IMG/VR virus record: IMGVR_UViG_2671180547_000005
Source: a virus
Taxonomy: Duplodnaviria > Heunggongvirae > Uroviricota > Caudoviricetes
DNA length: 39,501 bases
Reading direction: 5' to 3' (one strand)
A program made the translations under genes and the position numbers. The notes below the pieces were generated by a model. That model did not search any database. It worked only from the letters and a program-made list of their open reading frames with translations, and had not been told where the DNA came from. Below are positions 1,397 to 39,400 of this stretch, one piece after another; positions within the stretch are counted from its first letter, which is position 1, and every line of letters starts with the position of its first letter.

Positions 1397-1969
1397 ATGC
1401 TGATTGGGTATATCAGGGTGTCAACAAATGACCAGAATACGGCGCTACAAAGAAATGCGCTGGAATGTGCAGGATGTGAGCTGTTTTTCGAAGACAGAAT
1501 AAGCGGTAAGACAAGGGAGCGTCCCGGACTTAAACGCGCATTAAAGCGACTCCGGCCAGGGGATACCCTGCTGGTCTGGAAACTGGATCGCCTTGGACGC
1601 AGTATGCAGCACCTTGTCCTTTTAACAGAAGAACTCCGGCAACGCGGCGTTAACTTCCGCAGCATTACGGACAATATTGATACATCCACTCCCATGGGAC
1701 GTTTCTTTTTCCATATAATGGGCGCGCTGGCGGAAATGGAGCGGGAACTCATTATTGAACGTACACGCGCGGGTCTTGCTGCTGCCCGTGCTCAGGGGCG
1801 TCATGGCGGCAGACCTCAGAAACTGACAGAGAAAGAGCGGGAGCAAATCGCCCGTTTGCTGGCTAATGGCGAGTCCCGTAAACAAATCGCACTGATATTT
1901 GATATTGGCCTTTCCACCCTTTATCGTTATTTTCCTGCCTCACCAGCTCCGTCACCAAAAGTACCGTGA
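1397..1969 (+). CDS. gin: Serine DNA invertase, Gin/Hin/Cin/Pin family
   Basis: 190 aa; N-terminal MLIGYIRVSTNDQ with catalytic Ser, resolvase core, C-terminal HTH; adjacent to the gix-like site. Symbol given by analogy to Mu. Confidence 0.9.
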   Translation: MLIGYIRVSTNDQNTALQRNALECAGCELFFEDRISGKTRERPGLKRALKRLRPGDTLLVWKLDRLGRSMQHLVLLTEELRQRGVNFRSITDNIDTSTPMGRFFFHIMGALAEMERELIIERTRAGLAAARAQGRHGGRPQKLTEKEREQIARLLANGESRKQIALIFDIGLSTLYRYFPASPAPSPKVP

Positions 1970-2054: not shown

Positions 2055-4109
2055 ATGTCAGACTCCAAGTGGAAAATGCTCTCCGCCATGCCCGGAGAGT
2101 TTTCAGTCAAGGTTGCCGGTGGCACGGTGGCATTTATTGAAAGCCCTTTCCGCCCTTCGGGTAATAAAGGGGGGATCACCTTCGCAGACTGCGTGATCCG
2201 CTTCAGCACGAAAGAGCCATTATGGGTAATGCCGGTATCCGGTAATCCCAGTGCAGAAATCACCAGTTCAGGCGTGACTGGCATCATTCCAATCACATCT
2301 GACGTGGCCGGAACGCTCACGCCCTCCGACTGGAATGCACCGGATAACGCCGGGCCTTCCGGTAGCACGAATGGCAGCAGTTCAGAGCCGGAATATTACT
2401 TTGTTGTCATTCTCGCGGGTCAGTCAAATGGCATGGCCTACGGCGAGGGGCTGCCGTTACCGGATTCGTTTGACCGCCCGGACCCACGCATTAAGCAACT
2501 GGCACGCCGCAGTACGGTAACGCCCAACGGTACGTCGTGTACATACAACGACATCATTCCGGCAGACCACTGCCTGCATGATGTTCAGGATATGAGCGGG
2601 ATAAACCACCCGAAAGCTGATCTGGCAAAAGGCCAGTACGGGACTGTCGGTCAGGGGTTGCATATTGCCAAAAAACTGCTTCCCTATATCCCACAGAATG
2701 CCGGGATACTTCTGGTGCCCTGTTGTCGTGGCGGGTCAGCATTCACCACTGGAGCCGACGGCTCATTCAGTGAGGCCAGCGGTGCTTCCGCTGATTCTTC
2801 ACGCTGGGGGGCCGGTAAACCTCTGTATCAGGACCTGGTAAGCCGCACCAAAGTCGCGCTGGCGAAAAACCCGAAAAACAAACTTCTGGCTGTGGTCTGG
2901 ATGCAGGGAGAGGCAGACCTTGCCTCAGGAAGCCAGCAGCATAATAGTTTATTCACGGCCATGGTTCAGCAGTTCAGAACTGACCTGGCTCCGCTTGCTG
3001 CGCAGTGCGTGAGTGGAAATGCCACCACGGTGCCGTGGATTTGCGGTGATACCACGTATTACTGGAAAAACGCTGGCACCGATAAATATGAGGCAGTATA
3101 CGGTGGCTACAAAGGCAAGGAAGCACAGAAAATTTTCTTTGTACCGTTCCTGACGGATGAGAATGGACAGAGCACGCCAACGAATGCTCCGGCGGAAGAC
3201 CCGGATATTGTGGCTGTCGGGTATTACGGTGCAGCATCCCGAACCCAGGGCAGTTTTGTTTCGACACAGCGTGACAGCCATTTCAGCTCATGGGCACGCA
3301 GGGGCGTCATTTCAGACCGTCTGGCCTCAGCTATTATGCTCCATGCAGGGCGCACGGCTGAACTGATGCGTGGGCAGACCGTGACACCACCGGATGAGAA
3401 GCCGTCACCTGATACACCATCAAAACCGTCCACGCCACCCGCAGACACCACGACGATGAGTACGCTATTTGCTTACCGGGCATCTGAGTCTGAAGGACGG
3501 TTGACACCACAGGGTTGGGCTGCCGGAGGTGGCAAGGCTCAAATCGTGGATGATGCCGGAGCCAGCGGGGGTAAGGCAATGAAACTGACCAAGGAAACAG
3601 GAAGAGCCCCCTGGTACCTTGAGCATGATGCTGGTAATGGTGCGGACCTGCTGGGTAAAGGTGGTCTTGTCAGTTGTCGTTTTAAACTCGATGGCGCGCT
3701 TACGGCTAATCAGTACGCACTGGCGCTGTACTGGCCGGTTTCTGCCCTGCCGCAAGGGGTTACTCTGGAAGGAAATGCCGGTCATAACCTGCTGGCATCG
3801 TTCTACGTACAGAGCGATGCCACAGACCTTAACGTGATGTATCACAAAGGAAACACGGCGCAGAACACGAAGCTGGGGTCATTCGGCGCATTTAATAACG
3901 AATGGCATACGCTGGGCTTCCGTTTTGCCGGTAACAACAGTATTGAGGTGACGCCGGTCATTGATGGTAAGGACGGGACACCATTCATGCTGTCGCAGTC
4001 TCCGGTCGGCACGTTTACGGCAGACAAGTTGCGCGTGACCGATATCACTAAAAATGCGACTTACCCGGTACTGATTGACAGTATCGTGGTGGAAGTGAAT
4101 AACGCGTAA
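2055..4109 (+). CDS. NanS-p-like sialate O-acetylesterase (SASA/SGNH domain) with Pro/Thr linker and C-terminal lectin-like domain
   Basis: 684 aa; VVILAGQSNGMAYGEG matches the GQSN motif of the sialate O-acetylesterase family; size and modular layout resemble prophage NanS-p proteins. Confidence 0.6.
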   Translation: MSDSKWKMLSAMPGEFSVKVAGGTVAFIESPFRPSGNKGGITFADCVIRFSTKEPLWVMPVSGNPSAEITSSGVTGIIPITSDVAGTLTPSDWNAPDNAGPSGSTNGSSSEPEYYFVVILAGQSNGMAYGEGLPLPDSFDRPDPRIKQLARRSTVTPNGTSCTYNDIIPADHCLHDVQDMSGINHPKADLAKGQYGTVGQGLHIAKKLLPYIPQNAGILLVPCCRGGSAFTTGADGSFSEASGASADSSRWGAGKPLYQDLVSRTKVALAKNPKNKLLAVVWMQGEADLASGSQQHNSLFTAMVQQFRTDLAPLAAQCVSGNATTVPWICGDTTYYWKNAGTDKYEAVYGGYKGKEAQKIFFVPFLTDENGQSTPTNAPAEDPDIVAVGYYGAASRTQGSFVSTQRDSHFSSWARRGVISDRLASAIMLHAGRTAELMRGQTVTPPDEKPSPDTPSKPSTPPADTTTMSTLFAYRASESEGRLTPQGWAAGGGKAQIVDDAGASGGKAMKLTKETGRAPWYLEHDAGNGADLLGKGGLVSCRFKLDGALTANQYALALYWPVSALPQGVTLEGNAGHNLLASFYVQSDATDLNVMYHKGNTAQNTKLGSFGAFNNEWHTLGFRFAGNNSIEVTPVIDGKDGTPFMLSQSPVGTFTADKLRVTDITKNATYPVLIDSIVVEVNNA

Positions 4110-5400: not shown

Positions 5401-5443
5401 GAGTGATAAAGATATCAACAACAAAGCAGGAGGTTATGCGGCC

Positions 5444-5644
5444 ATGTATCGAAACATACGGTGCCGACATTGTAACAAGCTACTGGCACGAGCCAGCTTC
5501 AGTTATCTGGAAGTTAAATGTCCGCGCTGTAAAACCCTCAATCAAATCACATCTCAGAGCGCCACAGAGCACCCCACATACACAAGGAAATCCTGTCGTG
5601 GGGAACAGAAAGCAAGTTACATCCCGTATCATCAGCACGCCTGA
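5444..5644 (+). CDS. com: Com-like zinc-finger translational activator of mom
   Basis: 66 aa from the internal ATG with an upstream AGGAGG; CxxC ... CPRC zinc-finger pattern as in Mu Com. Confidence 0.7.
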
Positions 5645-6335
5645 ACTTATTCACTATAACGACAATATCGTCGGTTATGGCTCCCGTGAGTTACGGGTTG
5701 AGACAATAAGTTGCTGGCTGGCCCGGCTGGTCGTCGTCAATAAACATTACAGCCATCGTTTCGTAAATAATTCCTACCTTCATCTGGGCATATTTTCAGA
5801 ACGGGAGCTGGTTGGCGTAATGCAATGGGGTTATGCCCTTAATCCAAACAATGGTGCACGCGTCGTAACTGGCACGCAGAACCGCGAATATATGGAGCTT
5901 AACCGGTTATGGCTGCATGACTGTATGCCGAGAAACTCCGAATCAAGGGCAATCAGTTACGCGCTCAAACTAATCAGACAACTTTATCCGCAGGTGCAGT
6001 GGGTTCAGTCGTTTGCAGATGAGCGTTGTGGCTGTCTTGGTGTCGTGTACCAGGCAAGCAATTTTGATTATGTAGGCAGTCATGAAACAACATTCTATGA
6101 ACTTGATGGCGAGTGGTATCACGAGATTTGCAAGAATGCAATCAAACGAGGAGGACAGCGAGGTGAACATCTGCGGGCTAATATCGACAGAGCCAGTGTT
6201 CATAAATTCCGTCAGTTTCGTTACATCCGGTTTCTGGACAAGAGAGCCAGAAAACGCCTTAACACAAAGCTATTCAAAGTCCAGCCTTACCCAAAACCAC
6301 AAACAGTTAAAACTGGTTTGAAAGAGAGTGAATGA
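5598..6335 (+). CDS. mom: Mom-like DNA modification protein
   Basis: Overlaps the 3' end of com in another frame; GTG at 5598 preceded by AAGGAAA; about 245 aa; last gene before the phage end, as in Mu. Start codon inferred. Confidence 0.55.
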
Positions 6336-11012: not shown

Positions 11013-12354
11013 TGATCACCTCCACGCTGCGGCCACCCGGAACAAAAACCGGATCGGGGATATTGTTTCTGCGGACAAAATACTGCCAGCGACTGCTGTT
11101 GCCGGTGGCACGGTACAGCGTGACCAGTGCCGGTTCGGTGGTGCGAACCATGACCTGAAAAGCACCGGGAAGATGCACGCTCCGTGTGGTTAAATCTTCT
11201 GTCAGCGCAAGCCCTGCATCACGTAATGCAAGGGCAGTCCCGGTATAGCCCTGTGCGGACAGATCCAGCACCTGTTGTTCCATGGCATCGCTCAAATCCC
11301 GGTTGATACGCTGCACATCAGCAGAACTTTCCAGCCAGGCCAGTCCGCCCGAACGGTCAGTATCCTGAACGTGCGTCGTATTCTGCCGGATGACCTGATC
11401 CAGCAGTTTTCCGAGCGTCTGTGCCTGCGACACCAGGGTTGCACTCTGCATCACGCTCCGCAGCAGACGGATATTTTTCTGTGCCGCAGGCGTCAGGCCA
11501 ATCAGGCGCTGTGGATCATCCTGTTCGCTGAGGGTGTAACGCAGGGAGGAAAGTGTGCGGTACAGCTGCGGCATGGCCTGCTCTGCCATGCTGTCACGGT
11601 TTGTGGTCAGGCTGCCGGACGGCGTTCCGGCTTTTCCGGTCAGAGACAGGGAAGGATCGCCGGGCAGCCCGGTCAGCACGGCAAACATTCCGGCCAGCGA
11701 TTCAGCCATGCGACGGGGCGCATTAATCAGGGCGGCGGCATTGCCTTTCAGGGCAGTAAAACTGGCCGTAAAGGCACTGATATCCTGCACAATCCCCATC
11801 CCCGAAACGGCATTCTCCAGTGCATCAATCTTATCGCTGATGGTGTCGGTCATGGCCTGTACATCATGCAGACCGTCTGAAATCACCGTCCAGCCGTCTG
11901 AAAGCGTGTTAAACAGCTGATTCATTGCTGAGCCGCTTTTCTGCTCCAGCGCAGCTGCCGTATCTTCTGCCACCGCAGGGGCGGTATCGTCACTGGCGGG
12001 GATCACGTTGATCGTGAACTCAACCGTTCCCTGCTCGCTGGCGTTATAACGGCTTTCAAAGCTGTTTATCAGCACGTTTAACGTGCCGTAATCCGGGTGC
12101 ATCAGTTCACCGGCACCGGGTGCACGCAGCGCATCACGCAGGCGGCTTCGCTGTGTCTGAAGATCGTCTCCGGTCACCAGAACCGTGAATGTGAACTCCG
12201 GGAGTTTTGGCCCCAGATCATCCGCACCGCCGCTTTCACGCAGTGGGTATTCACGGCGCACAATGTTACGTCCGCCCCGTTCCCGCTGCTCCTGATAAAC
12301 CAGGAACGGTACGCCACGAAAGGAGCCACGCCCCGGCGTGTCAGTAGAGGCCAT
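10996..12354 (-). CDS. DNA circularisation protein N-like (Mu gp43)
   Basis: 452 aa immediately after the tape measure gene. Confidence 0.65.
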   Translation of the reverse strand: MASTDTPGRGSFRGVPFLVYQEQRERGGRNIVRREYPLRESGGADDLGPKLPEFTFTVLVTGDDLQTQRSRLRDALRAPGAGELMHPDYGTLNVLINSFESRYNASEQGTVEFTINVIPASDDTAPAVAEDTAAALEQKSGSAMNQLFNTLSDGWTVISDGLHDVQAMTDTISDKIDALENAVSGMGIVQDISAFTASFTALKGNAAALINAPRRMAESLAGMFAVLTGLPGDPSLSLTGKAGTPSGSLTTNRDSMAEQAMPQLYRTLSSLRYTLSEQDDPQRLIGLTPAAQKNIRLLRSVMQSATLVSQAQTLGKLLDQVIRQNTTHVQDTDRSGGLAWLESSADVQRINRDLSDAMEQQVLDLSAQGYTGTALALRDAGLALTEDLTTRSVHLPGAFQVMVRTTEPALVTLYRATGNSSRWQYFVRRNNIPDPVFVPGGRSVEVISEQQD

Positions 12355-14398
12355 AGTTCCCTCCGTTCCAGACGTTCACATCCAGGCCATGCTGTGCGGT
12401 ATCATCCACATCAATACTGCGCGCCCGCCAGCCTTCAGGGGCAACAAGCTCCACCCGTGCGGCGGTTTTCGCGGTGGCCTGTCCGCCGTTTTCGTCACTG
12501 CCGCCACGCAGTTTCTGCCAGGCCTGCGTCAGCCAGCCCCCCAGATAATCACCGAGATAGCTGCCCACCGTGGAACCAATGGCAACCCCGACCGGACCGG
12601 CAGCCGCCCCCAGCGCGCCACCGGCGATACTTCCGGCAAGGGAACCCACGGCACCGGCTTTATCGGCTGCACTGGCGCTGCTGTCCAGCAGTACAGGAGC
12701 CGCCATGGCACCGGCCCACAGGGCACCACCACCCAGCCGACCGGCACCACGGAACAGCCCGGCAAAACGCCCCAGCCCCATGCGGTTTCCGGCCGCCGTT
12801 AGCAGACCACCGGCACGGCTCATCATACGACCGAAGAAGCCCTGTTTACCGGCACTCTCCGCCAGTTGCTCACCGGCAGTCACGACGGTCGTGACACCCC
12901 GTCCACGTCCGGGGCCGCGTTTTTTACGGCCGCGCACGGTTTTGCCGTCACCGCTGACCACCACATCCCCGCCACCTGAGGCCAGGCCACCCGCAGGCCA
13001 ATTGGTGACCAGCACGGGCTGAACGGCAGCCGGATTTACCCCGGTAAGGAAATTCAGGAACCGGCCAGCGCGTCCGGGCTGCGTTCCCGGTACAGTGGTC
13101 TGCGGTTTGCGGAAGGGCGACGTCAGCACGGAGGTCATCGCCATGCCATAGCGTAAGGGGGTTGCGCCGAGACGTAATGCCCCCGTCCCCGCAAACCTGA
13201 GCACCTTCAGCGCACGGGAGGCGAGATACATATACATCAGGTACTTTGCGGCGGTCTGCGCACCCTGACCAATGCGATCCAGCGCATCGCCATAACCGGC
13301 GTCGCGCAGTGCCTGAAGCGTTTCCCTGACTTTCTGAATGACCCGGTAAAAGCCGGTCGCAGCGTCTCTGGCATACTCAAATCCCTGATTCAGGGCTGAG
13401 GCCGTCTGTGTGGCCAGCTTATCCTGTAAGCCGCTTTTCTGTGCCGCATCAGCATAATCCAGAAAGCCTTTCAGGCTCTTTTTCAGGCTGTCAAACGGTC
13501 CCTTTGCCATCACCTCGCGGGCAAATCCGTCCCAGACATCGCCCATCATGGACGTCATTCCCGTCCAGGAATTCATGGCGTTTTTCTGGGCACCTTTTGC
13601 CTGTTCGGCCATCACCTGAAATAACAGGCGAATGCTGTCCGGTCCCAGTTTTCCTTTCTCGCCTTTCTCACGGATGATCTTCTGGTTTACACCCAGCTTA
13701 TCGGCCAGCAACTGGTAAACGTTAATCCCGTATCCGGTCAGAATATTGGCGTCCGCTGCCTGGATACTCTGGCGGGCAAACATCTGTTTGAGTTGCAGGG
13801 ACGCACCCTGTGCATCTGACAGTGACCAGCCGTGATAGCCGCCCTGATCCTGAAGCATGGTAATAAAGCGACGGGCTTCCCTGTCACTCATACCGAACCC
13901 GCGACTGGAGGCGTATTCCTGCATAACCCCCGCCAGCCCCCAGGTGGTGTCTTTGGCGTTCTGTACCGCCCAGGCTTTCACTGCTTCCGTTTTTGCCGTA
14001 TCGCCATGATTAATGGCGTTGAGACGCAGAATATAGTTCTCCATCTCTGCGGCCGGGCGGATAAAGGCTTTATTAAACCCGTAGACCGCAGCCCCTCCCG
14101 CCAGCATCCCGTAAAGGTTGCTTATCCGCCCGATGGTGCCGGTAATGCTGCCCTGAAGGCGGTCAAAATCTGACGTCACCGTGCGGATACTGCCACGAAC
14201 ACCGGCAAGCGTTCGCTGCATACGGGAGCCGACAAGTTCTGTCTCCTGACCGGCACGACGTGCTGCATTTCCAAGACCACCCAGCCCCGTCCTGCCGGAA
14301 CGGGAGAATGCCCCCAGCTCCTGTGACCACTGGCGGGATTTGGCAGAAATATTGCCGAGTAAATCGACAATCAGGGAGGCTTTCAGGTTTTTTGCCAT
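12341..14398 (-). CDS. Tail tape measure protein
   Basis: 685 aa; Gly/Ala-rich with repetitive C-terminal region; position after the chaperone. Confidence 0.8.
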   Translation of the reverse strand: MAKNLKASLIVDLLGNISAKSRQWSQELGAFSRSGRTGLGGLGNAARRAGQETELVGSRMQRTLAGVRGSIRTVTSDFDRLQGSITGTIGRISNLYGMLAGGAAVYGFNKAFIRPAAEMENYILRLNAINHGDTAKTEAVKAWAVQNAKDTTWGLAGVMQEYASSRGFGMSDREARRFITMLQDQGGYHGWSLSDAQGASLQLKQMFARQSIQAADANILTGYGINVYQLLADKLGVNQKIIREKGEKGKLGPDSIRLLFQVMAEQAKGAQKNAMNSWTGMTSMMGDVWDGFAREVMAKGPFDSLKKSLKGFLDYADAAQKSGLQDKLATQTASALNQGFEYARDAATGFYRVIQKVRETLQALRDAGYGDALDRIGQGAQTAAKYLMYMYLASRALKVLRFAGTGALRLGATPLRYGMAMTSVLTSPFRKPQTTVPGTQPGRAGRFLNFLTGVNPAAVQPVLVTNWPAGGLASGGGDVVVSGDGKTVRGRKKRGPGRGRGVTTVVTAGEQLAESAGKQGFFGRMMSRAGGLLTAAGNRMGLGRFAGLFRGAGRLGGGALWAGAMAAPVLLDSSASAADKAGAVGSLAGSIAGGALGAAAGPVGVAIGSTVGSYLGDYLGGWLTQAWQKLRGGSDENGGQATAKTAARVELVAPEGWRARSIDVDDTAQHGLDVNVWNGGNYGLY

Positions 14399-14401
14399 GG
14401 G

Positions 14402-14596
14402 TTACTGCTTCGTTCTGAGAATTTTTTCGGTCTGTCGGCAGTGCCGGTAAAGCTGCGATAAGGGGAGGTTAAGCGCCCACTCCGGGCCGCTTTTTGTCAC
14501 CATCCCCAGCACAATTGCGGCTTCTTCAATCTGATCCCGGCACTGCATCTGGTCGCCCCCGTTCAGCGACCAGCTTTCCGGCCATCGCGGAATCAA
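14402..14596 (-). CDS. Frameshift extension of the tail assembly chaperone
   Basis: Overlaps the 3' end of the chaperone ORF by 71 nt in the +1 frame and stops 4 nt before the tape measure start; a G5 run lies in the overlap. Confidence 0.45.
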   Translation of the reverse strand: MIPRWPESWSLNGGDQMQCRDQIEEAAIVLGMVTKSGPEWALNLPLSQLYRHCRQTEKILRTKQ

Positions 14597-15002
14597 GCAG
14601 GCTTACTGCCGCCATCAGTCGGGAGAGATCGCGCTCGCTGAGCTGTCCTATCTGACGCGGAGACAATGGCCCCTCAATCTGGCCGACAGCGGCAATCTGA
14701 CGGCGCAGCAGCGCAATGCCGCGCAGTGCCGGTGAGGCCACAAGAACCGGACCGTTTCGGGTTTCCATAAGACGCTCGGCCTCGCTCTCCGCATCAATGC
14801 TGTCTTTTGCCGTCAGTTCGCGGAAGGTGACGCGGTATTCACGGGATTCCCCGAACGGCAGACCGTCGAGCAGATCCACATAGCCGTTCGCCAGTTGTTC
14901 AGCCAGCCCGGCGGTGCGGGGATCGCCGTCTTCAAGTGCATCCCGGATAGCCTCCATCACGGCCTCGTCAGAAACCGCCGTTTTTTTCTTACGTGTGCTC
15001 AT
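14526..15002 (-). CDS. Tail assembly chaperone (Mu gp41-like)
   Basis: 158 aa acidic protein between the tube and tape measure genes. Confidence 0.65.
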   Translation of the reverse strand: MSTRKKKTAVSDEAVMEAIRDALEDGDPRTAGLAEQLANGYVDLLDGLPFGESREYRVTFRELTAKDSIDAESEAERLMETRNGPVLVASPALRGIALLRRQIAAVGQIEGPLSPRQIGQLSERDLSRLMAAVSLLDSAMAGKLVAERGRPDAVPGSD

Positions 15003-15016
15003 TACATTTTTCCTGA

Positions 15017-15382
15017 TTACTGGACACGGGTACTGGTGGCGCTGGCGAACTTCGCGGAGATATCACCACCACCGTCAAGCGAGGCCGGTTCACTGCTCCA
15101 GGCCTTCGTCATCATGTGGACTTCACCGGTATCGGCCACGAACTCAATCGTGACCGCAGTCCAGGTGTTGATTTCATCGGCAGCCGGTGAACCTTCTCCG
15201 CCCGCCGGGAATTTACAGTCCAGCGTCGCCTCACGGGGTTTCTCGCGATAGCCGTAAACTTTCGCGCCTTTCACCACTTCACGCTCAAAGCCGGACGGGG
15301 AGAACGTGGCCCCCTCAAGGGTGTCGTACTCCTGCCCGTTCACACGGATGGTGGCCGTGCCCTGATACTGTTTTCCGCTCAT
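15017..15382 (-). CDS. Tail tube protein (Mu M-like)
   Basis: 121 aa directly downstream of the sheath gene. Confidence 0.75.
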   Translation of the reverse strand: MSGKQYQGTATIRVNGQEYDTLEGATFSPSGFEREVVKGAKVYGYREKPREATLDCKFPAGGEGSPAADEINTWTAVTIEFVADTGEVHMMTKAWSSEPASLDGGGDISAKFASATSTRVQ

Positions 15383-15390
15383 GCCTTACC

Positions 15391-16893
15391 TCACAAAATG
15401 AAACGGATCTGCGCGGCCATGAAGCGGAACTGGTTAACCAGATCCGGTGTACACATCACATCCAGACGGTTACGGTCTTTTGTGTTGCGCTCCACGAGCA
15501 GATTCTTTTTAAAGGTGTCCAGATTTTCGACCAGTCCCAGATCCACCCATTCTTCCCCCAGCGAAATTAACTGAAGTTTCATGATCTCCGGTGTCACGAT
15601 ATTCTGACCGGCACGAACGGGCGTCCCGTCATCAGCCAGTTTATGGCGCGGAAAACGCTGCGTGATAAAGGTGCGCAGGGAATAACGCAGATATGACAGG
15701 GTGTAGATGGTTTCCACATCCAGATAGCTGGGATCGATTTCGCCGTATGCATTCTGACGGTACATCGTCACCTGACGTTCAATCTGCACCACATCCGCGG
15801 CCGCGACGGTCACCGTGGACATGCCGGTATAAAGCAGGCTGTTTCGCTCTTCCCGCGTCAGACGATCCGGTGCTTCAGGTGCCATACGGGCAGGCAGCGC
15901 CAGTGTCTGTAATGGTCGGGCCGGATCCGTTGACAGGGAGGGCGCACAGACCGCACAAATGGAGGCAGCCCAGACATAATCCGGCTCTGGTGCTTTAGGA
16001 ATAGAAGTGCAGGTAAACAGGAAGTCATTACGGGATTCACCAAAACTGGTTGCCGTACCGAAGGTGCCGGTATGCGCCATCCAGACCATACCGTCCGACA
16101 TTTTTACCGGTCCCCAGCGTTTCAGCAGTTCATCCGCCAGAATTTTGAGATTTGCCGCATCCTTATAGGGCATGACGATGTAGTTGTACTGACGATTCCC
16201 CATCCCTGAGACGCTACGGGTGATATCGGGGTTTGTTGCCTTCTGTGTTGGCGCGACGAGCTCCAGCGTAAGACCGGCCGGTGTAGTTTCACCGTCATAA
16301 TAGTTCACCCGTAAATCATGAGCTGAGCATTCACCGATAAAGCGGGCGTTAACCCCCATGCTGCCTTTAAGTCCTTCAGCATTATCACCACTGACTTCAG
16401 CTGCGATAGCAGTGAATGGCGCATCAGTGTCAGCGTTAATGACCTTAGCCAGCTCTTCCACAAGCTCTTTACCTTTTTTCCCCTTACTGACGGGCAGGAG
16501 GTAACGGCGACCGCCGATGTAAACACTTAACACCCCGTCTGCCAATGCTGTTCCAATGATATTCATCACGCATGCCCTGGACTGACCTGTTCCAGCCCCC
16601 TGTGCAATGGCATATAACTCTGTGTCAGGGTTAATGGCGATAAATTCCTCTACCATCAGTGCAATCATGGAACCTCGCCCCCAGAGTTCTCTTGCTTGTG
16701 AAGCTCGGGTAATACGTACTGGTACATCAAGCTGACCGCGCCCCTGAATGGTAGTGTCTTTCATTGCAGCCTGACCAAACAACAGTACCGCCTGACGCTG
16801 TGGTGGAGTGCCGGTCACGGCCATTGAATTATTGATTTCAATCTGTACCAGCGGAATGCGATTGTTATCGCCGATATAATCAAAGTTAATCAT
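15391..16893 (-). CDS. Contractile tail sheath protein (Mu L-like)
   Basis: 500 aa; position and size. Confidence 0.85.
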   Translation of the reverse strand: MINFDYIGDNNRIPLVQIEINNSMAVTGTPPQRQAVLLFGQAAMKDTTIQGRGQLDVPVRITRASQARELWGRGSMIALMVEEFIAINPDTELYAIAQGAGTGQSRACVMNIIGTALADGVLSVYIGGRRYLLPVSKGKKGKELVEELAKVINADTDAPFTAIAAEVSGDNAEGLKGSMGVNARFIGECSAHDLRVNYYDGETTPAGLTLELVAPTQKATNPDITRSVSGMGNRQYNYIVMPYKDAANLKILADELLKRWGPVKMSDGMVWMAHTGTFGTATSFGESRNDFLFTCTSIPKAPEPDYVWAASICAVCAPSLSTDPARPLQTLALPARMAPEAPDRLTREERNSLLYTGMSTVTVAAADVVQIERQVTMYRQNAYGEIDPSYLDVETIYTLSYLRYSLRTFITQRFPRHKLADDGTPVRAGQNIVTPEIMKLQLISLGEEWVDLGLVENLDTFKKNLLVERNTKDRNRLDVMCTPDLVNQFRFMAAQIRFIL

Positions 16894-34325: not shown

Positions 34326-34553
34326 TTAGCTGACTTGTTTCGCACCAACAGAACGGCATATTCCGCTGTAAACTTCTGTCGCACCTTCGCGATCAAGTCC
34401 GGCAGATATCACCATTCGTGTGCGGTCATTAAATTCAAAAAGTAAATCGCCACATTCTTTATTTTCGGCCAGTGAAATCACCTTCACGTTATCGAAATTA
34501 ACCAGGTAAAAGCGTCCGTAAATATCAGGAATATTAAATACCGCCATAATCAC
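34326..34553 (-). CDS. Hypothetical early protein in the position of Mu kil
   Basis: 75 aa directly downstream of the B-like gene; positional analogy only. Confidence 0.35.
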   Translation of the reverse strand: MIMAVFNIPDIYGRFYLVNFDNVKVISLAENKECGDLLFEFNDRTRMVISAGLDREGATEVYSGICRSVGAKQVS

Positions 34554-35491
34554 ACCTGTGAGAGTAATTCAGGGTTGGTATAAACCTCTTTAAAGGCCGC
34601 ATTAATATGTTTTTCTGTCAGCGCCGCGCCTTCACCGCTGGCGGTGAGCCACGCCTGGTTAAGCGTATGTGTCAGAACGCGTAACGCTCCCGGCTTTTCA
34701 GCGATAGCCTGCATGACGGCCAGCTCGGCCTCACCACTGATCCCCCACGCCATGGCAATGGCCAGCACATCCGCCTTTTTGGCCTTGCGAAGTTGTTTTG
34801 TACGGGCAAGACGGCTGAACAGGCGCGATAAATCATCAAAGGCGCGGCGTCCACCTTTAAACAATCCGCGCGGGTTACCAATAAGCACCATCCCGATCCC
34901 CGTGGCGTCCTGAATTGCCCGGAGTTGCTCCAGACCGTCAATACCAAGATGATCCGCCTCATCCACAATCACCAGTCCACGCGTTCCCATCAGGCGACGG
35001 CGGATGGCGCGGGATAATGCCCCTTTGTTCGCGCGGGTGTAATCAATCCCCAGCGCATCGGCCAGCTCCAGCAGACACTCCGTGACGCTGGAGTGCGCGG
35101 GTGACAGGGTGATCATCCAGGTGTTTGGTTGCTCCTGGCAGTAATTACGGGCAGTGGCCGTTTTACCCACACCCGGTACGCCCACAATAACGTTAATACA
35201 GCCCATCAGGCGAACCGCCTGAAACAGTGCGCGCAGCTCCTGGACTGTCTGAGTTTCCACAAACTGCGGCGGTTCCGGCAGTGCGCTTTGTTTATTCCAG
35301 TTCTCATACCAGGAGCGCAGGGAAGCAGCCACAGCAGCGTTATCGCCTTTATATTTTCCCTTACGGAAAGCCGATAATGTGCCGTCGGAAATTCCCGCCT
35401 CTCTGGCGATGGCATACTGCGTCAGTACGCCGCCATCAATAAGTTCATCAATGGTCTTGATTACATCGTTAATATCGGTCATATTATTCAC
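34550..35491 (-). CDS. MuB-type AAA+ ATPase (transposition target DNA activator)
   Basis: 313 aa; Walker A GVPGVGKT; clear similarity to Mu B. Confidence 0.85.
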   Translation of the reverse strand: MNNMTDINDVIKTIDELIDGGVLTQYAIAREAGISDGTLSAFRKGKYKGDNAAVAASLRSWYENWNKQSALPEPPQFVETQTVQELRALFQAVRLMGCINVIVGVPGVGKTATARNYCQEQPNTWMITLSPAHSSVTECLLELADALGIDYTRANKGALSRAIRRRLMGTRGLVIVDEADHLGIDGLEQLRAIQDATGIGMVLIGNPRGLFKGGRRAFDDLSRLFSRLARTKQLRKAKKADVLAIAMAWGISGEAELAVMQAIAEKPGALRVLTHTLNQAWLTASGEGAALTEKHINAAFKEVYTNPELLSQV

Positions 35492-35564: not shown

Positions 35565-37652
35565 TCAGGCCAGCGGATCACTTTCTTTTAATTTCGCTTC
35601 GAGCAGTTGCAATCCCCGCTGGAAATTACGCTCGTATTCTTCATCAGGTTCATCGTCAGCGACCGGTTGCTGAACGGTCACCGTATTACCCACAGGGCGG
35701 TATATGTTTTCCAGCCAGGGCTCCTGCGGCTTGTGCTCCAGCACGTTGACAACCTCATCCTCGGCATCACGGATTTTTTCCTCTGCGCGTTTACGCATGC
35801 CTTTAAGGCGCTGCTGCTGTTTGTAGTATTCCGCGCTGACAGGGAAGGCTTCGCGTTTATTGCCGTCCCATACCGCCTCGCAAATCACGCTGCCATCCGG
35901 GCGGCGCACGGTAATTCGTTCGGCATCATGAATGTCATAGCTGATAAGTACCTTACGGCCATGCTCGTCACGCAGCTCGGGCGCGTAGTAAATATTATTC
36001 AGCCAGCGTATTTCACAGCGTCTTACAGGGCGCTCCACCATCGGCCGGAACATATCCCGCAGTTCAACATCGGACAGCCATTCAATTTCCGTGTCCTCTT
36101 CCGCCAGGCGTTTTTTTCTGAACTCCGCCGGGCTGTAATGTTTACCGTTCGGCTTCATGGGTAATTCATCGTGCGGCCGGTTGTTGTACCACTCAACACC
36201 GTCACGAATGGCATCAATCAGTTCAGACCAGGACGGTAAATCACGCATCGCTGACTGCTGCCGGGCGTTCAGCCGTTTGCCCTGTTGCAGGGCACTGAAT
36301 GCCGAGCGTAAATCGCGGTTGGTTTTACGTAACGTCTCGCGATCTGCTCCTTTCCCGAAATAGGTGCGGTATTTACGGGCTATGCGCATCGGTAATGTGC
36401 GGTTAAGCCGTTCGATAATGCCCCGTCCCTGCGGATTACCGGCAATCCCTGTCGGGTGATTAATCCCCAGTCGTGGCAGTATCCCCACAATCTCCTTATC
36501 CAGGACGTCGGCGGTTTCCCCGGAGCCATTATCCGAGTAATACAGAAACGGTTTGCCATGATGGCGAATACCGTGCTGTATGGCACCGGCTACGGCGAAA
36601 ACATTTTCAGCCAGGTCAAGGCTCCAGCCCACCACAAAGCGCGTGCCACCGTCGATAACAAAGGTCACTTCCGGTGCGAATGGCCGCCCGTGAACCGGGT
36701 GCGCGCATTTCAGCTTCATGCCGTGACCGTCACCAATCCAGACATAATTCACCGGCATTCTGGACCAGTCGCGGCGCGTGAATCCCTCAAGCTGACGGTA
36801 TTCACTGCCAGTTACCCGGCCTTTTTGTTTCACCACTTCCGGCAGTTTCTTCATTGCGCGGCGAATGGTGTCATAAGAGGGCATGATATCGAGCATATAA
36901 GGCTCATCAGCGTGCCGGTGCTGCCATTCAGCAACAAAATCCTCGTAAGCCTCGGTCATTGGTCGGCCGTTTGACTGGCGATACTGCGCCAGAAATTCGG
37001 GCAGCCAGTTAATATCTTCGGCTTTTATTTCCTGGCGTTTACCCGGTGCCAGTAAAAGCAGGCGTTCAGCGGCGTTCTGTGCCTTGTTAAAGGCCGCAAT
37101 CCAGCGTTTCAGCGTGATTTCACTCAACGCGCGGCTGTTTCCCTTTTTGGCGTTCGCCGTCTCAACCATTGCCACAATGCGCTCGTCCAGTTGTGATCGT
37201 GCCAGGCTGTTAACGAGGAACCGGATAGCTTTAGCGCAGCTGAAACCGGGTTGTTGCGTGAATTTCAGCACCTCACTGACGATCGCAATGCGTGCGTCTG
37301 CCACCTGGCGCTGGTTTTCAGTCAGGGCATTGAGGCGTTCGACCATCAGTTGTGGTGATCCGCGATATGCCTCCACCGCATCAACCACGGCAGACGAGCG
37401 TCTGGCCTTTGTCACCACCGGAGCCGGTGATTCATCGGCTTTTTGCGTCATCAGTTGCAGGGCATAACGTTCGCGTAATGCCTGCTGTGTCACTTCAGGT
37501 AAACAGTCAATGCTGTATTCAAAACCTTTAGCGCCTTTCTTGCGGCGTCTGCTGGTTTCGCTGGTTGCATACTTCCTGATTGAATAGCGAACGCCTTGCT
37601 CCGTTCCCGGCATCCCCGGTAATCCAACCAGTTCTTTAACTGAAGCAAACAT
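35565..37652 (-). CDS. Mu-type DDE transposase (MuA-like)
   Basis: 695 aa; follows ner and precedes B as in Mu. Confidence 0.85.
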   Translation of the reverse strand: MFASVKELVGLPGMPGTEQGVRYSIRKYATSETSRRRKKGAKGFEYSIDCLPEVTQQALRERYALQLMTQKADESPAPVVTKARRSSAVVDAVEAYRGSPQLMVERLNALTENQRQVADARIAIVSEVLKFTQQPGFSCAKAIRFLVNSLARSQLDERIVAMVETANAKKGNSRALSEITLKRWIAAFNKAQNAAERLLLLAPGKRQEIKAEDINWLPEFLAQYRQSNGRPMTEAYEDFVAEWQHRHADEPYMLDIMPSYDTIRRAMKKLPEVVKQKGRVTGSEYRQLEGFTRRDWSRMPVNYVWIGDGHGMKLKCAHPVHGRPFAPEVTFVIDGGTRFVVGWSLDLAENVFAVAGAIQHGIRHHGKPFLYYSDNGSGETADVLDKEIVGILPRLGINHPTGIAGNPQGRGIIERLNRTLPMRIARKYRTYFGKGADRETLRKTNRDLRSAFSALQQGKRLNARQQSAMRDLPSWSELIDAIRDGVEWYNNRPHDELPMKPNGKHYSPAEFRKKRLAEEDTEIEWLSDVELRDMFRPMVERPVRRCEIRWLNNIYYAPELRDEHGRKVLISYDIHDAERITVRRPDGSVICEAVWDGNKREAFPVSAEYYKQQQRLKGMRKRAEEKIRDAEDEVVNVLEHKPQEPWLENIYRPVGNTVTVQQPVADDEPDEEYERNFQRGLQLLEAKLKESDPLA

Positions 37653-38862: not shown

Positions 38863-39173
38863 TGTCGCCAGTCGATACCTTCCAGCAGCATCGCCAGCTG
38901 CGCCTGTGTAAGGAACACTTTGCCATCACGGGCTGACGGCCAGGCGAAGCGCCCACGCTCCAGCCGTTTGGTCAGGAGGCACAGTCCGTCACTGGTGGAC
39001 CACAGCAGTTTAACCTGACTGCCGCTGCGGCCCCGGAAAATGAAAACATGGCCGGACATGGGATCGTCTTTCAGCGCCGTCTGTACTTTCGCAGCCAGGC
39101 CGTTGAAGCCATTTCTCATATCGGTGATACCGGCAACCAGCCAAATTTTGATCCCGGAAGGTAACGGGATCAT
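38853..39173 (-). CDS. tnpB: IS66-family TnpB (orf2), 3' end interrupted at the phage junction
   Basis: 107 aa with the characteristic IWLVAGITDMR ... LLEGIDWR; the stop codon coincides with the first bases of the phage end. Confidence 0.75.
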
Positions 39174-39400
39174 CGCTTCAGTTCCTGTATCAGCAGAGTC
39201 AGGAGCTTTTCGCTGACATTGCCATTGAAGCGGAGCGTCCCGTGCCGGAACGTTACCTCACAGCTGATACTGAGGGTTTTCGGGTCCTCTGCGAGCGATT
39301 CTGGCTGTTCGGCAGCTGCATCGAGAGTCACAGGAAGTAGCTGGGGGCTCTCTGAAGAAGGTAATAGCTGAGGTGTACTGGCAATAGCGGACACTACCAT
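39170..39400 (-). CDS. Probable IS66-family orf1 (TnpA) C-terminal part
   Basis: Stop overlaps the tnpB start in an ATGA arrangement; frame stays open to the window edge. Confidence 0.4.
   Translation of the reverse strand: MVVSAIASTPQLLPSSESPQLLPVTLDAAAEQPESLAEDPKTLSISCEVTFRHGTLRFNGNVSEKLLTLLIQELKR

What the first reader, a model, noticed from the sequence alone, without database searches (positions are those of the whole stretch)
14402..15002. Tail assembly chaperone with a probable +1 frameshift extension
A 64-aa ORF overlaps the 3' end of the chaperone gene by 71 nt and stops 4 nt before the tape measure start, as with the lambda G/GT pair. By the ORF coordinates the extension is in the +1 frame rather than the usual -1, and a G5 run lies in the overlap.
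Basis: partly seen in the sequence, partly recalled or inferred. Interest (0 to 1): 0.4.

Follow-up and report, generated by a model that had tools for sequence, protein, structure and literature searches.

The report
Mu-type tail chaperone -2 frameshift
This is the tail assembly chaperone gene of a Mu-like prophage of E. coli. It carries the same slippery sequence (GGGGGCGA) on which phage Mu was shown in 2004 to make a longer fusion protein by a -2 ribosomal frameshift, so the feature is real but already explained.

Summary
On the minus strand a 158-aa chaperone gene (15002..14526) lies between the tail tube and tape measure genes. A 64-aa ORF (14596..14402) in the +1/-2 frame overlaps it by 71 nt and stops 3 nt before the tape measure ATG. 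A G5 run lies in the overlap.

The chaperone belongs to Pfam Gp41_Mu and is 50% identical to Mu gp41. The slip site, GAA CGG GGG CGA, matches Mu's site over 12 nt. GenBank annotates that Mu site as a "verified -2 translational frameshift", and reviews describe it the same way.

Across 72 distinct homologous loci:
- The in-phase GGG CGA is present in all 72.
- The extension is always in the same frame.
- In one phage the shift can only occur within a 20-nt window around the motif.

Substitutions in the extension fall mainly on third codon positions of its frame (dN/dS about 0.1). I found no conserved RNA structure.

The predicted 200-aa fusion aligns across the junction with Mu's frameshift product. 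The event is most likely -2, but sequence alone cannot settle the direction.

Verdict: ordinary, already known, and left unannotated by RefSeq. Low interest.

The parts
15017..15382 (-). Tail tube gene (121 aa), immediately upstream of the chaperone gene
   Evidence: Pfam Tail_tube PF10618, E 3.4e-30. RefSeq calls it 'phage tail tube protein' in the identical E. coli locus.
14526..15002 (-). Tail assembly chaperone gene (158 aa), the zero-frame product and a homologue of Mu gp41
   Evidence: Pfam Gp41_Mu PF23746, E 3.3e-32, 111 bits against a cut-off of 27. tblastn gives 49.6% identity to Mu gp41. PHROG 508 'tail assembly chaperone', E 5e-43.
14553..14560 (-). Slip site GGGGGCGA. Zero-frame codons are CGG (14561-14559), GGG (14558-14556) and CGA (14555-14553).
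   Evidence: The 12 nt GAACGGGGGCGA are identical to the Mu site. In-phase GGG CGA is present in 72 of 72 distinct homologous loci.
14402..14554 (-). Extension read after the shift: 50 codons, GAC (14554-14552) to CAG, then TAA (14404-14402). It encodes DQMQCRDQIEEAAIVLGMVTKSGPEWALNLPLSQLYRHCRQTEKILRTKQ.
   Evidence: Translation. The sequence aligns with the extension of Mu's frameshift product. PHROG 12783, E 1e-36. dN/dS is about 0.1 in this frame and at least 1 in the other two.
14402..14596 (-). Its TTG start is probably not used.
   Evidence: The TTG has no Shine-Dalgarno-like sequence upstream (anti-SD dG -2.3).
14402..15002 (-). Predicted frameshift fusion CDS, join(15002..14553, 14554..14402): 200 aa, made of 150 chaperone residues plus 50 extension residues
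   Evidence: Colinear BLASTP alignment with Mu UIW09302.1 runs across the junction: 50% identity over 167 aa, E 8e-58.
12341..14398 (-). Tape measure protein gene (685 aa). Its ATG lies 3 nt after the extension stop.
   Evidence: Pfam TMP_3 PF20155, E 2.1e-17. Coordinates.

Best explanation
The window is a Mu-like prophage of E. coli.

Most ribosomes translating the chaperone gene (15002..14526, minus strand) terminate at TGA 14528-14526 and make the 158-aa chaperone. A small fraction slip back two nucleotides on G_GGG_GCG_A. At that moment tRNA-Gly is on GGG (14558-14556) and tRNA-Arg(ICG) is on CGA (14555-14553). After the slip tRNA-Gly re-pairs perfectly with GGG (14560-14558) and tRNA-Arg re-pairs partly with GGC (14557-14555). 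Translation resumes at GAC (14554-14552) and adds 50 residues, ending at TAA 3 nt before the tape measure ATG. The result is a 200-aa fusion.

By analogy with lambda gpG/gpGT, the shared N-terminal part coats the tape measure protein. The C-terminal extension recruits the tail tube protein. The slip frequency sets a fixed low fusion-to-chaperone ratio that tail assembly needs.

Shown here: homology, the identical slip site, the frame, purifying selection on the extension, and colinearity with the Mu product.

Inferred: that the fusion protein is actually made from this sequence, that the direction is -2, the efficiency, and the binding partners.
For: (1) Pfam Gp41_Mu, E 3e-32. The gene order sheath, tube, chaperone, tape measure is as in Mu.

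(2) The 12-nt site GAACGGGGGCGA is identical to Mu's although the proteins are only about 50% identical. GenBank annotates that Mu site as a verified -2 frameshift.

(3) Literature: tandem -2 slippage on GG GGG CGA (PMC3458567). Efficiency is given as about 2.2% (PMC3498833). The shift is listed as -2 in PMC5009743. A Mu 10-mer alone gave 14% in a cell-free system (bioRxiv 10.1101/2025.10.02.679949).

(4) In 72 distinct homologous loci from Escherichia, Citrobacter, Pasteurella, Klebsiella, Shewanella, Vibrio and Alteromonadaceae phages and from IMG/VR contigs, GGG CGA is in phase in 72 of 72. The extension is always in the +1/-2 frame and runs 31-47 aa past the chaperone stop. The -1 frame offers nothing conserved.

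(5) R-G-R is the only conserved motif in an otherwise variable C-terminus. This points to constraint at the nucleotide level.

(6) In Shewanella phage MuM16-2 the two frames are both open only over 20 nt, and the motif sits in that stretch.

(7) Among E. coli variants, differences in the non-overlapping 120 nt fall on third positions of the extension frame. Examples are 8 of 10 and 11 of 14. dN/dS is about 0.08-0.1, against at least 1 in the other frames.

(8) The predicted fusion aligns across the junction with Mu UIW09302.1, E 8e-58.
Against: There is no protein-level evidence for this prophage. None of the three possible fusion sequences is in the 15-billion-protein collection, and RefSeq annotates only the 158-aa chaperone.

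I could not read the primary paper (PMID 15469818), so the -2 assignment rests on the GenBank note and on secondary literature.

The two database versions of the Mu fusion differ at the junction residue. GenBank has ..ERG-R-EWL.. and UniProt P0DJY4 has ..ERG-G-EWL... The exact tRNA choreography, tandem slip or P-site only, is therefore not settled by what I could see.

I found no conserved stimulatory RNA structure or upstream Shine-Dalgarno-like element that would independently mark a programmed site.
Confidence: 0.88

Rival explanations
1. The fusion is made, but by a true +1 shift. Peptidyl-tRNA-Gly on GGG would slip forward onto GGC while the slowly decoded CGA codon waits in the A site. 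The product would be 199 aa (..ERG-DQMQ..).
For: The frame is the same as for -2. CGA is a minor Arg codon in these genes, 9%, which fits a 'hungry A-site' model. The cell-free assay cited cannot separate -2 from +1. Eight distinct Citrobacter-type relatives have only four Gs (AAG GGG CGA), where -2 re-pairing of tRNA-Gly would be imperfect.
Against: The GenBank record for Mu says 'verified -2', and three reviews or papers describe the shift as -2. Both deposited Mu fusion proteins are 188 aa, the -2 length, not 187. A +1 model does not explain why the G before GGG is kept in all 72 of 72 sequences and NGG in 60 of 72.
Confidence: 0.06
2. The extension is translated on its own as a small protein. 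In this window that would be a 48-aa peptide from ATG 14548-14546, with the G run acting as a Shine-Dalgarno sequence 7 nt upstream. It would replace the fusion or be made in addition to it.
For: The ATG lies at extension codon 3, and the predicted anti-SD pairing of the G run is -8.6 kcal/mol. This 48-aa ORF is deposited as 'hypothetical protein' on 116 contigs and is annotated in E. coli M3 and, as gene 41.5, in D108. The extension has its own PHROG, 12783, of unknown function.
Against: The start is not conserved. ATG is found at that codon in only 22 of 72 distinct sequences. Mu has CTG, the nearest relatives (L003, L007) have GCG, and the Vibrio and Shewanella phages have AAG. The heptamer and the open frame are universal. 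In L014 and L085 the extension frame opens only 7 nt before the heptamer. In Mu, whose extension has no start codon, the fusion is the verified product.
Confidence: 0.04
3. The frame change comes from RNA polymerase slippage on the G5 run, or the overlap is a sequencing or assembly artefact or a decaying pseudogene.
For: Homopolymer runs can cause both. One IMG/VR relative (L076) does have the two frames fused by a missing G.
Against: Five Gs is a short run for transcriptional slippage (general knowledge). Such slippage would not explain the invariant CGA after the run (72 of 72), nor the clade with only four Gs. The arrangement is identical in 36 complete E. coli genomes and many independent contigs. 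The extension is under purifying selection. L076 has also lost a G from a second G run further on, which points to homopolymer undercalling in that assembly.
Confidence: 0.02

Closest known systems
Phage Mu gp41 / FS-gp41 (Mu_41 and Mu_56 in AF083977.1; UniProt P0DJY4): tail assembly chaperone with a programmed -2 frameshift (Xu, Hendrix and Duda 2004, PMID 15469818)
   Same: Same Pfam family (Gp41_Mu). 50% identity along the whole fusion, including across the junction. The 12-nt site GAACGGGGGCGA is identical and in the same phase. The extension is in the same frame and has the same length of 50 aa. The gene sits in the same position between the tube and tape measure genes, and the extension stop lies just before the tape measure start.
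   Different: The chaperone is 158 aa here against 144 aa in Mu, with a longer and unrelated N-terminus. There are 8 rather than 6 zero-frame codons between the site and the stop. This lineage has an ATG at extension codon 3 where Mu has CTG. There is no experimental evidence for this locus, and the fusion is not annotated in RefSeq.
Phage lambda gpG / gpGT
   Same: It has the same logic. Two products share an N-terminus, are encoded between the major tail (tube) gene and the tape measure gene, and are made in a fixed ratio by a low-frequency ribosomal frameshift. Neither product is in the virion (PMC5009743).
   Different: Lambda uses a -1 shift on an X_XXY_YYZ-type heptamer. Here the -1 frame closes 9 codons past the chaperone stop and no such heptamer is used. 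There is no detectable sequence similarity, and lambda's tail is non-contractile.
Phage P2 gpE / gpE+E' and the Pfam family Phage_TAC_7 ('E, or 41 or 14')
   Same: It is the chaperone pair of a contractile-tailed phage in the same gene position. There is a weak profile similarity (PF10109, E 5.5e-5).
   Different: The score of 23.6 bits is below the family's cut-off of 25. P2 is listed with the -1 frameshifting phages (PMC2628397).
+1 frameshifts in tail genes of Listeria phages and B. subtilis phage SPP1 (cited in PMC3498833)
   Same: They give access to the +1 frame to make a C-terminally extended phage structural protein.
   Different: They use a different mechanism and different slip sites, and in the Listeria phages the genes are the major capsid and tail proteins. 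They are not homologous to this chaperone. I recall this from the literature and did not test it here.

Membership tests
Mu-type gp41/FS-gp41 chaperone with programmed -2 frameshift | Zero-frame protein homologous to Mu gp41 | tested here: met
   Pfam Gp41_Mu, E 3.3e-32, 111 bits against a cut-off of 27. tblastn gives 49.6% identity to Mu.
Mu-type gp41/FS-gp41 chaperone with programmed -2 frameshift | Gene lies between the tail tube gene and the tape measure gene | tested here: met
   Tube 15017-15382, chaperone 14526-15002, tape measure 12341-14398, all on the minus strand.
Mu-type gp41/FS-gp41 chaperone with programmed -2 frameshift | [quoted passage not shown] | tested here: met
   CGG GGG CGA at 14561-14553, 27 nt before the end of the zero-frame stop. 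Identical to Mu. In phase in 72 of 72 relatives.
Mu-type gp41/FS-gp41 chaperone with programmed -2 frameshift | Open extension of about 40-50 codons in the -2/+1 frame, homologous to Mu's extension, ending just before the tape measure start | tested here: met
   50 codons, with the stop 3 nt before the tape measure ATG. The extension aligns with Mu's. PHROG 12783, E 1e-36.
Mu-type gp41/FS-gp41 chaperone with programmed -2 frameshift | The extension frame is translated (purifying selection in that frame) | tested here: met
   dN/dS is about 0.08-0.1 in the extension frame and at least 1 in the other frames. Differences are concentrated on third positions. The pairwise comparisons are not phylogenetically independent.
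Mu-type gp41/FS-gp41 chaperone with programmed -2 frameshift | A fusion protein is actually produced, and the shift is -2 rather than +1 | not testable with these tools
   This needs protein analysis. It is known only for Mu, through the GenBank note and secondary literature.
Lambda G/GT-type -1 frameshift | X_XXY_YYZ heptamer and an extension in the -1 frame | tested here: not met
   The -1 frame is open for only 9 codons past the chaperone stop, and nothing in it is conserved across relatives.
Classical +1 frameshift (prfB-like: P-site slip, slow A-site codon, Shine-Dalgarno sequence a few nt upstream) | Shine-Dalgarno-like stimulator upstream and a slow or stop codon in the A site | tested here: inconclusive
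   CGA is a minor codon. There is no significant anti-SD complementarity upstream in the window or in Mu: 43% and 16% of background windows in the same gene are at least as good.
Known RNA frameshift elements (Rfam) | Match to a curated frameshift-stimulating RNA family | tested here: not met
   No Rfam match at E up to 1 in 14300-15100. There is no consensus structure in 14 or 21 aligned relatives.

The most novel reading that the evidence does not exclude
In this E. coli lineage the G run may serve two purposes: as the -2 slip site, and as a Shine-Dalgarno sequence for the in-frame ATG two codons downstream (14548-14546). If so, a free 48-aa extension-only peptide would be made alongside the 200-aa fusion. 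That would change the stoichiometry logic assumed for G/GT-type chaperones. Only about a third of relatives (22 of 72) have this ATG.
Probability: 0.1. Interest if true: 0.3.

Novelty: already known. Interest (0 to 1): 0.1.

Why it matters
Scientifically it matters little. The Mu -2 frameshift has been a textbook recoding example since 2004, and this locus is a plain homologue with the identical site.

The practical value is for annotation. RefSeq/PGAP annotates only the 158-aa chaperone in these prophages. It leaves the extension unannotated or calls it a 48-aa 'hypothetical protein', and PHROGs lists the extension as a family of unknown function. None of the candidate fusion sequences for this window's chaperone is in the protein collection.

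The comparative set assembled here gives a simple rule for annotating the fusion across the family. It covers 72 distinct loci, all with in-phase GGG CGA. It also shows that the conserved core of the signal is G_GGG_CGA with no conserved flanking RNA structure.

Tried and rejected
(1) Downstream stimulatory RNA structure: none supported.
- The 103 nt after the site fold no better than shuffles (z = +0.36 in the window, -1.6 in Mu).
- RNAalifold on 21 diverse relatives gives no consensus structure.
- On 14 closer relatives only a 3-bp stem with no covariation is predicted.

(2) Upstream Shine-Dalgarno-like stimulator. There is a weak tendency in distant relatives (median background fraction 0.13) but none in the window (0.43) or in Mu (0.16).

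(3) Rfam: no match.

(4) Chance significance of the octamer alone: not significant, 2 found against 1.8 expected. The argument rests on phase and conservation instead.

(5) The -1 frame as an alternative path: closed after 9 codons and not conserved.

(6) The genome-contig scan with the single protein returned only one locus, from Citrobacter braakii. The viral-contig scan with an alignment was far more productive.

(7) The primary paper (PMID 15469818) is not held, so I relied on the GenBank note and secondary sources.

(8) L076 looked like an exception, with no slip site and fused frames. It lacks one G in each of two G runs and is most likely a homopolymer sequencing artefact.

(9) The 159-aa proteins that cluster with the 48-aa ORF looked like possible natural fusions. 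They are ordinary chaperone variants.

(10) My first start-codon screen used too narrow a Shine-Dalgarno definition and gave 0 of 72. I redid it with anti-SD energies.

Full report
**Observation**

All the genes involved are on the minus strand. The order is:
- tail sheath, 16893..15391 (Pfam Phage_sheath_1)
- tail tube, 15382..15017 (Pfam Tail_tube, E 3e-30)
- a 158-aa ORF, 15002..14526
- a 685-aa tape measure protein, 14398..12341 (Pfam TMP_3, E 2e-17)

The 64-aa ORF 14596..14402 overlaps the 3' end of the 158-aa ORF by 71 nt. It lies in the +1 (equivalently -2) frame, since (15002-14596) mod 3 = 1. It ends with TAA at 14404-14402. Three bases (CCC) separate that stop from the tape measure ATG at 14398. 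Measured stop to stop, the extension frame opens after a TAA at 14605-14603.

The G5 run is at 14560-14556, inside GGGGGCGA (14560-14553). The zero-frame codons there are CGG GGG CGA, that is R148, G149 and R150.

**What the window is**

The window carries the following Pfam-identified genes:
- MuA-type transposase, 37652..35565
- MuB, 35491..34550
- Mu portal
- MuF
- Mu-like major head protein gpT
- DNA circularisation protein
- baseplate J
- a Mom-family protein

The chaperone region is 100% identical to E. coli JE86-ST05 (NZ_AP022815.1). It occurs at 80% identity or more in 36 of 5426 complete E. coli genomes. Among phage records the nearest DNA is the 'inserted Bacteriophage Mu-like phage' inside two Stx-converting phages, at 89-91% identity. 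The window is thus a Mu-like prophage of E. coli.

**Identity of the chaperone**

The 158-aa protein matches Pfam Gp41_Mu ('Tail assembly protein gp41') at E 3.3e-32 over the full profile. By tblastn it is 49.6% identical to Mu gp41.

The updated Mu GenBank record AF083977.1 annotates two CDSs at the homologous place. Mu_41 is the chaperone. Mu_56 is a two-piece join described as 'verified -2 translational frameshift in PMID 15469818; tail assembly chaperone frameshift product'.

**The slip site is the Mu slip site**

Mu reads ...CAA GAA CGG GGG CGA GTG.... The window reads ...GCT GAA CGG GGG CGA CCA.... Twelve consecutive nucleotides are identical and in the same phase, although the proteins are only half identical.

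The literature I could read describes this site as follows:
- It is a tandem -2 slip on GG GGG CGA. The A-site tRNA-Arg (anticodon ICG) re-pairs better in the -2 frame than in the -1 frame (PMC3458567).
- Its estimated efficiency is about 2.2% (PMC3498833).
- A recent preprint reports that a Mu 10-mer alone gave 14% shifting into that frame in a reconstituted cell-free system. That assay cannot distinguish -2 from +1 (10.1101/2025.10.02.679949).

The primary paper is not in the held library.

**Comparative test**

I collected the homologous region from the following sources:
- Mu, SfMu and D108
- phages of Pasteurella, Klebsiella, Shewanella, Vibrio and Alteromonadaceae
- E. coli variants and Citrobacter braakii
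- 80 IMG/VR contigs

This gave 72 distinct sequences. The results were:
- In 72 of 72 the codon pair GGG CGA is present in the same phase, 10-55 nt before the chaperone stop.
- The preceding codon ends in G in all 72. It is CGG or AGG in 60.
- Elsewhere in the same genes GGG is 17% of Gly codons (149 of 871) and CGA is 9% of Arg codons (74 of 832).
- In the protein alignment of ten diverse members, R-G-R is the only conserved motif in a variable C-terminal region. This is what a nucleotide-level constraint looks like.
- The extension is always in the +1/-2 frame and runs 31-47 codons past the chaperone stop. The -1 frame offers nothing conserved.
- In Shewanella phage MuM16-2 the extension frame opens 7 nt before the heptamer and the zero-frame stop ends 6 nt after it. 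The frame change must therefore occur within a 20-nt window that contains the motif.

The one apparent exception is L076. It lacks one G in this run and one G in a second G run downstream. It is most simply a homopolymer undercall.

Twelve sequences have four rather than five Gs. The variants are AAG GGG CGA (8), TCG GGG CGA (3) and CAG GGG CGA (1). The invariant core is therefore G_GGG_CGA.

**The extension is translated**

I compared the 120 nt of the extension that do not overlap the chaperone gene between the window and its E. coli relatives. Differences are concentrated on third positions of the extension frame. Examples are 0/2/8, 3/0/7 and 1/2/11 by codon position. dN/dS is about 0.08-0.1 in that frame and at least 1 in the other two. 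These pairwise comparisons share ancestry, so they are not independent, but the pattern is uniform.

The 50-residue extension matches PHROG 12783 ('unknown function') at E 1e-36. The predicted 200-aa fusion aligns without a gap across the junction with Mu's deposited frameshift product UIW09302.1: 50% identity over 167 aa, E 8e-58.

**Stimulatory elements**

I found none that is conserved.
- The 103 nt after the site fold no better than shuffled sequence in the window (z +0.36) and only slightly better in Mu (z -1.6).
- RNAalifold gives no consensus on 21 diverse relatives. On 14 closer ones it gives only a 3-bp stem without covariation.
- Upstream anti-Shine-Dalgarno complementarity is unremarkable in the window and in Mu.
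- Rfam has no match.

This agrees with the preprint's finding that a 10-mer suffices.

**Rival readings**

(a) A +1 rather than a -2 shift. This cannot be excluded from sequence. However, the GenBank note and three papers say -2. Both deposited Mu fusions have the -2 length of 188 aa. The conserved G upstream of GGG is what a -2 re-pairing needs.

(b) Independent initiation. In this window an ATG lies at extension codon 3 (14548-14546), with the G run 7 nt upstream as a plausible Shine-Dalgarno sequence (-8.6 kcal/mol). The 48-aa ORF is deposited as a hypothetical protein on 116 contigs. But ATG occurs there in only 22 of 72 distinct relatives, and it is absent from Mu and from the nearest relatives. 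It cannot be the conserved route, though an extra free peptide in this lineage is not excluded.

(c) Transcriptional slippage or artefact. This is disfavoured by the invariant CGA, by the four-G clade, by the recurrence in many independent assemblies and by purifying selection.

**Mechanism and function**

The most likely course, about 0.88, is as follows. Most ribosomes finish the 158-aa chaperone. A small fraction slip back 2 nt on G_GGG_GCG_A and resume at GAC 14554-14552. They produce a 200-aa fusion that ends 3 nt before the tape measure start.

The function is inferred from lambda gpG/gpGT as summarised in PMC5009743. The common part binds the tape measure protein. The extension recruits the tube protein. 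Neither product ends up in the virion, and the fixed low ratio is needed for tail assembly. None of this was tested for this prophage.

**Comparison and novelty**

This is a member of the Mu gp41/FS-gp41 family. Every sequence-level defining feature was tested and met. Only the protein-level features are untestable here.

It works like lambda G/GT and P2 E/E+E' but is not a -1 system. It is the known Mu-type -2 shift.

The finding is already known and of low interest. Its residue of usefulness is for annotation. RefSeq omits the fusion, PHROGs lists the extension as unknown, and none of the three candidate fusion sequences for this window's chaperone is in the protein collection.

Noticed in passing
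window 16675..16682 (-), in the tail sheath gene 15391..16893: A second copy of GGGGGCGA lies in the sheath gene in the same codon phase as the slip site (TGG GGG CGA, codons W71 G72 R73). After a -2 shift the frame stops after 3 codons (EVP*), so any slippage here would only abort a small fraction of sheath synthesis. One extra copy is within chance expectation (2 found against 1.8 expected in the window).
   Followed up: partly
Mu fusion proteins P0001 (UIW09302.1) and P0002 (UniProt P0DJY4): The two public versions of Mu's frameshift product differ at the junction residue. GenBank has ..QERG-R-EWLR.., the tandem-slip reading. UniProt has ..QERG-G-EWLR.., where the frame is switched before the Arg codon. 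Both are 188 aa. I could not read the primary paper to see which residue was determined.
   Followed up: partly
L039-L043, L045-L047, L004 (AAG GGG CGA); L049, L083 (TCG GGG CGA); L050 (CAG GGG CGA): Twelve distinct relatives, including the Citrobacter braakii prophage, have only four Gs at the slip site. After a -2 slip the P-site tRNA-Gly would face AGG or CGG, a first-position mismatch. The extension frame and length are nevertheless conserved. The minimal conserved signal is therefore G_GGG_CGA, and efficiency or mechanism may differ in these clades.
   Followed up: partly
L076 1240..1330 (IMGVR_UViG_2758568005_000002): In this contig the chaperone and extension frames are fused because the G run has four Gs. 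A second G run about 70 nt downstream is also one G short, which breaks the extension again. This looks like homopolymer undercalling in the assembly rather than biology. Two 187-aa 'fused' Mu-like proteins from Logan assemblies (P0003, P0008) look similar.
   Followed up: partly
L005 (NZ_AP022815.1 697316..699374), compared with window 12341..14398: In the E. coli JE86-ST05 copy whose chaperone region is 100% identical to the window, RefSeq marks the tape measure gene as a frameshifted pseudogene (2059 nt). In the window the tape measure ORF is intact (2058 nt, 685 aa). That genome has three places that match the chaperone region, so the window may come from another copy or strain.
   Followed up: no
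window 2055..4109 (+) and 5403..6335 (+): Near the low-coordinate end of the prophage, on the strand opposite to the late genes, there are two ORFs. One is a 684-aa ORF with a sialate O-acetylesterase-type SASA domain plus DUF6645. The other is a 310-aa Mom-family protein. A DNA-invertase-like stretch at about 1398..1788 resembles the invertase gene of Erwinia phage ENT90. This differs from the layout at the right end of Mu.
   Followed up: partly
window about 38863..39369: A stretch 99% identical to ISEc8 (IS66 family) sequences found in many Stx-converting phages lies just beyond the transposase/repressor end of the Mu-like prophage.
   Followed up: no
L011-L016, L085, L092, L094: 10-20 nt upstream of the slip site: Several distant relatives (Vibrio, Shewanella, Pasteurella and others) have a Shine-Dalgarno-like GGAG, GAGG or AGGTG 12-20 nt upstream of the heptamer. 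Anti-SD dG reaches -10.9, and the median background fraction is 0.13. The window and Mu do not. This could be a lineage-specific stimulator or a coincidence.
   Followed up: partly
window 14399..14425 (-), upstream of the tape measure ATG: The tape measure start has no obvious Shine-Dalgarno sequence (..GAACGAAGCAGTAACCC ATG). It lies 3 nt after the extension stop and 127 nt after the chaperone stop. How its initiation is driven, by coupling to the rare frameshifted ribosomes or otherwise, was not examined.
   Followed up: no
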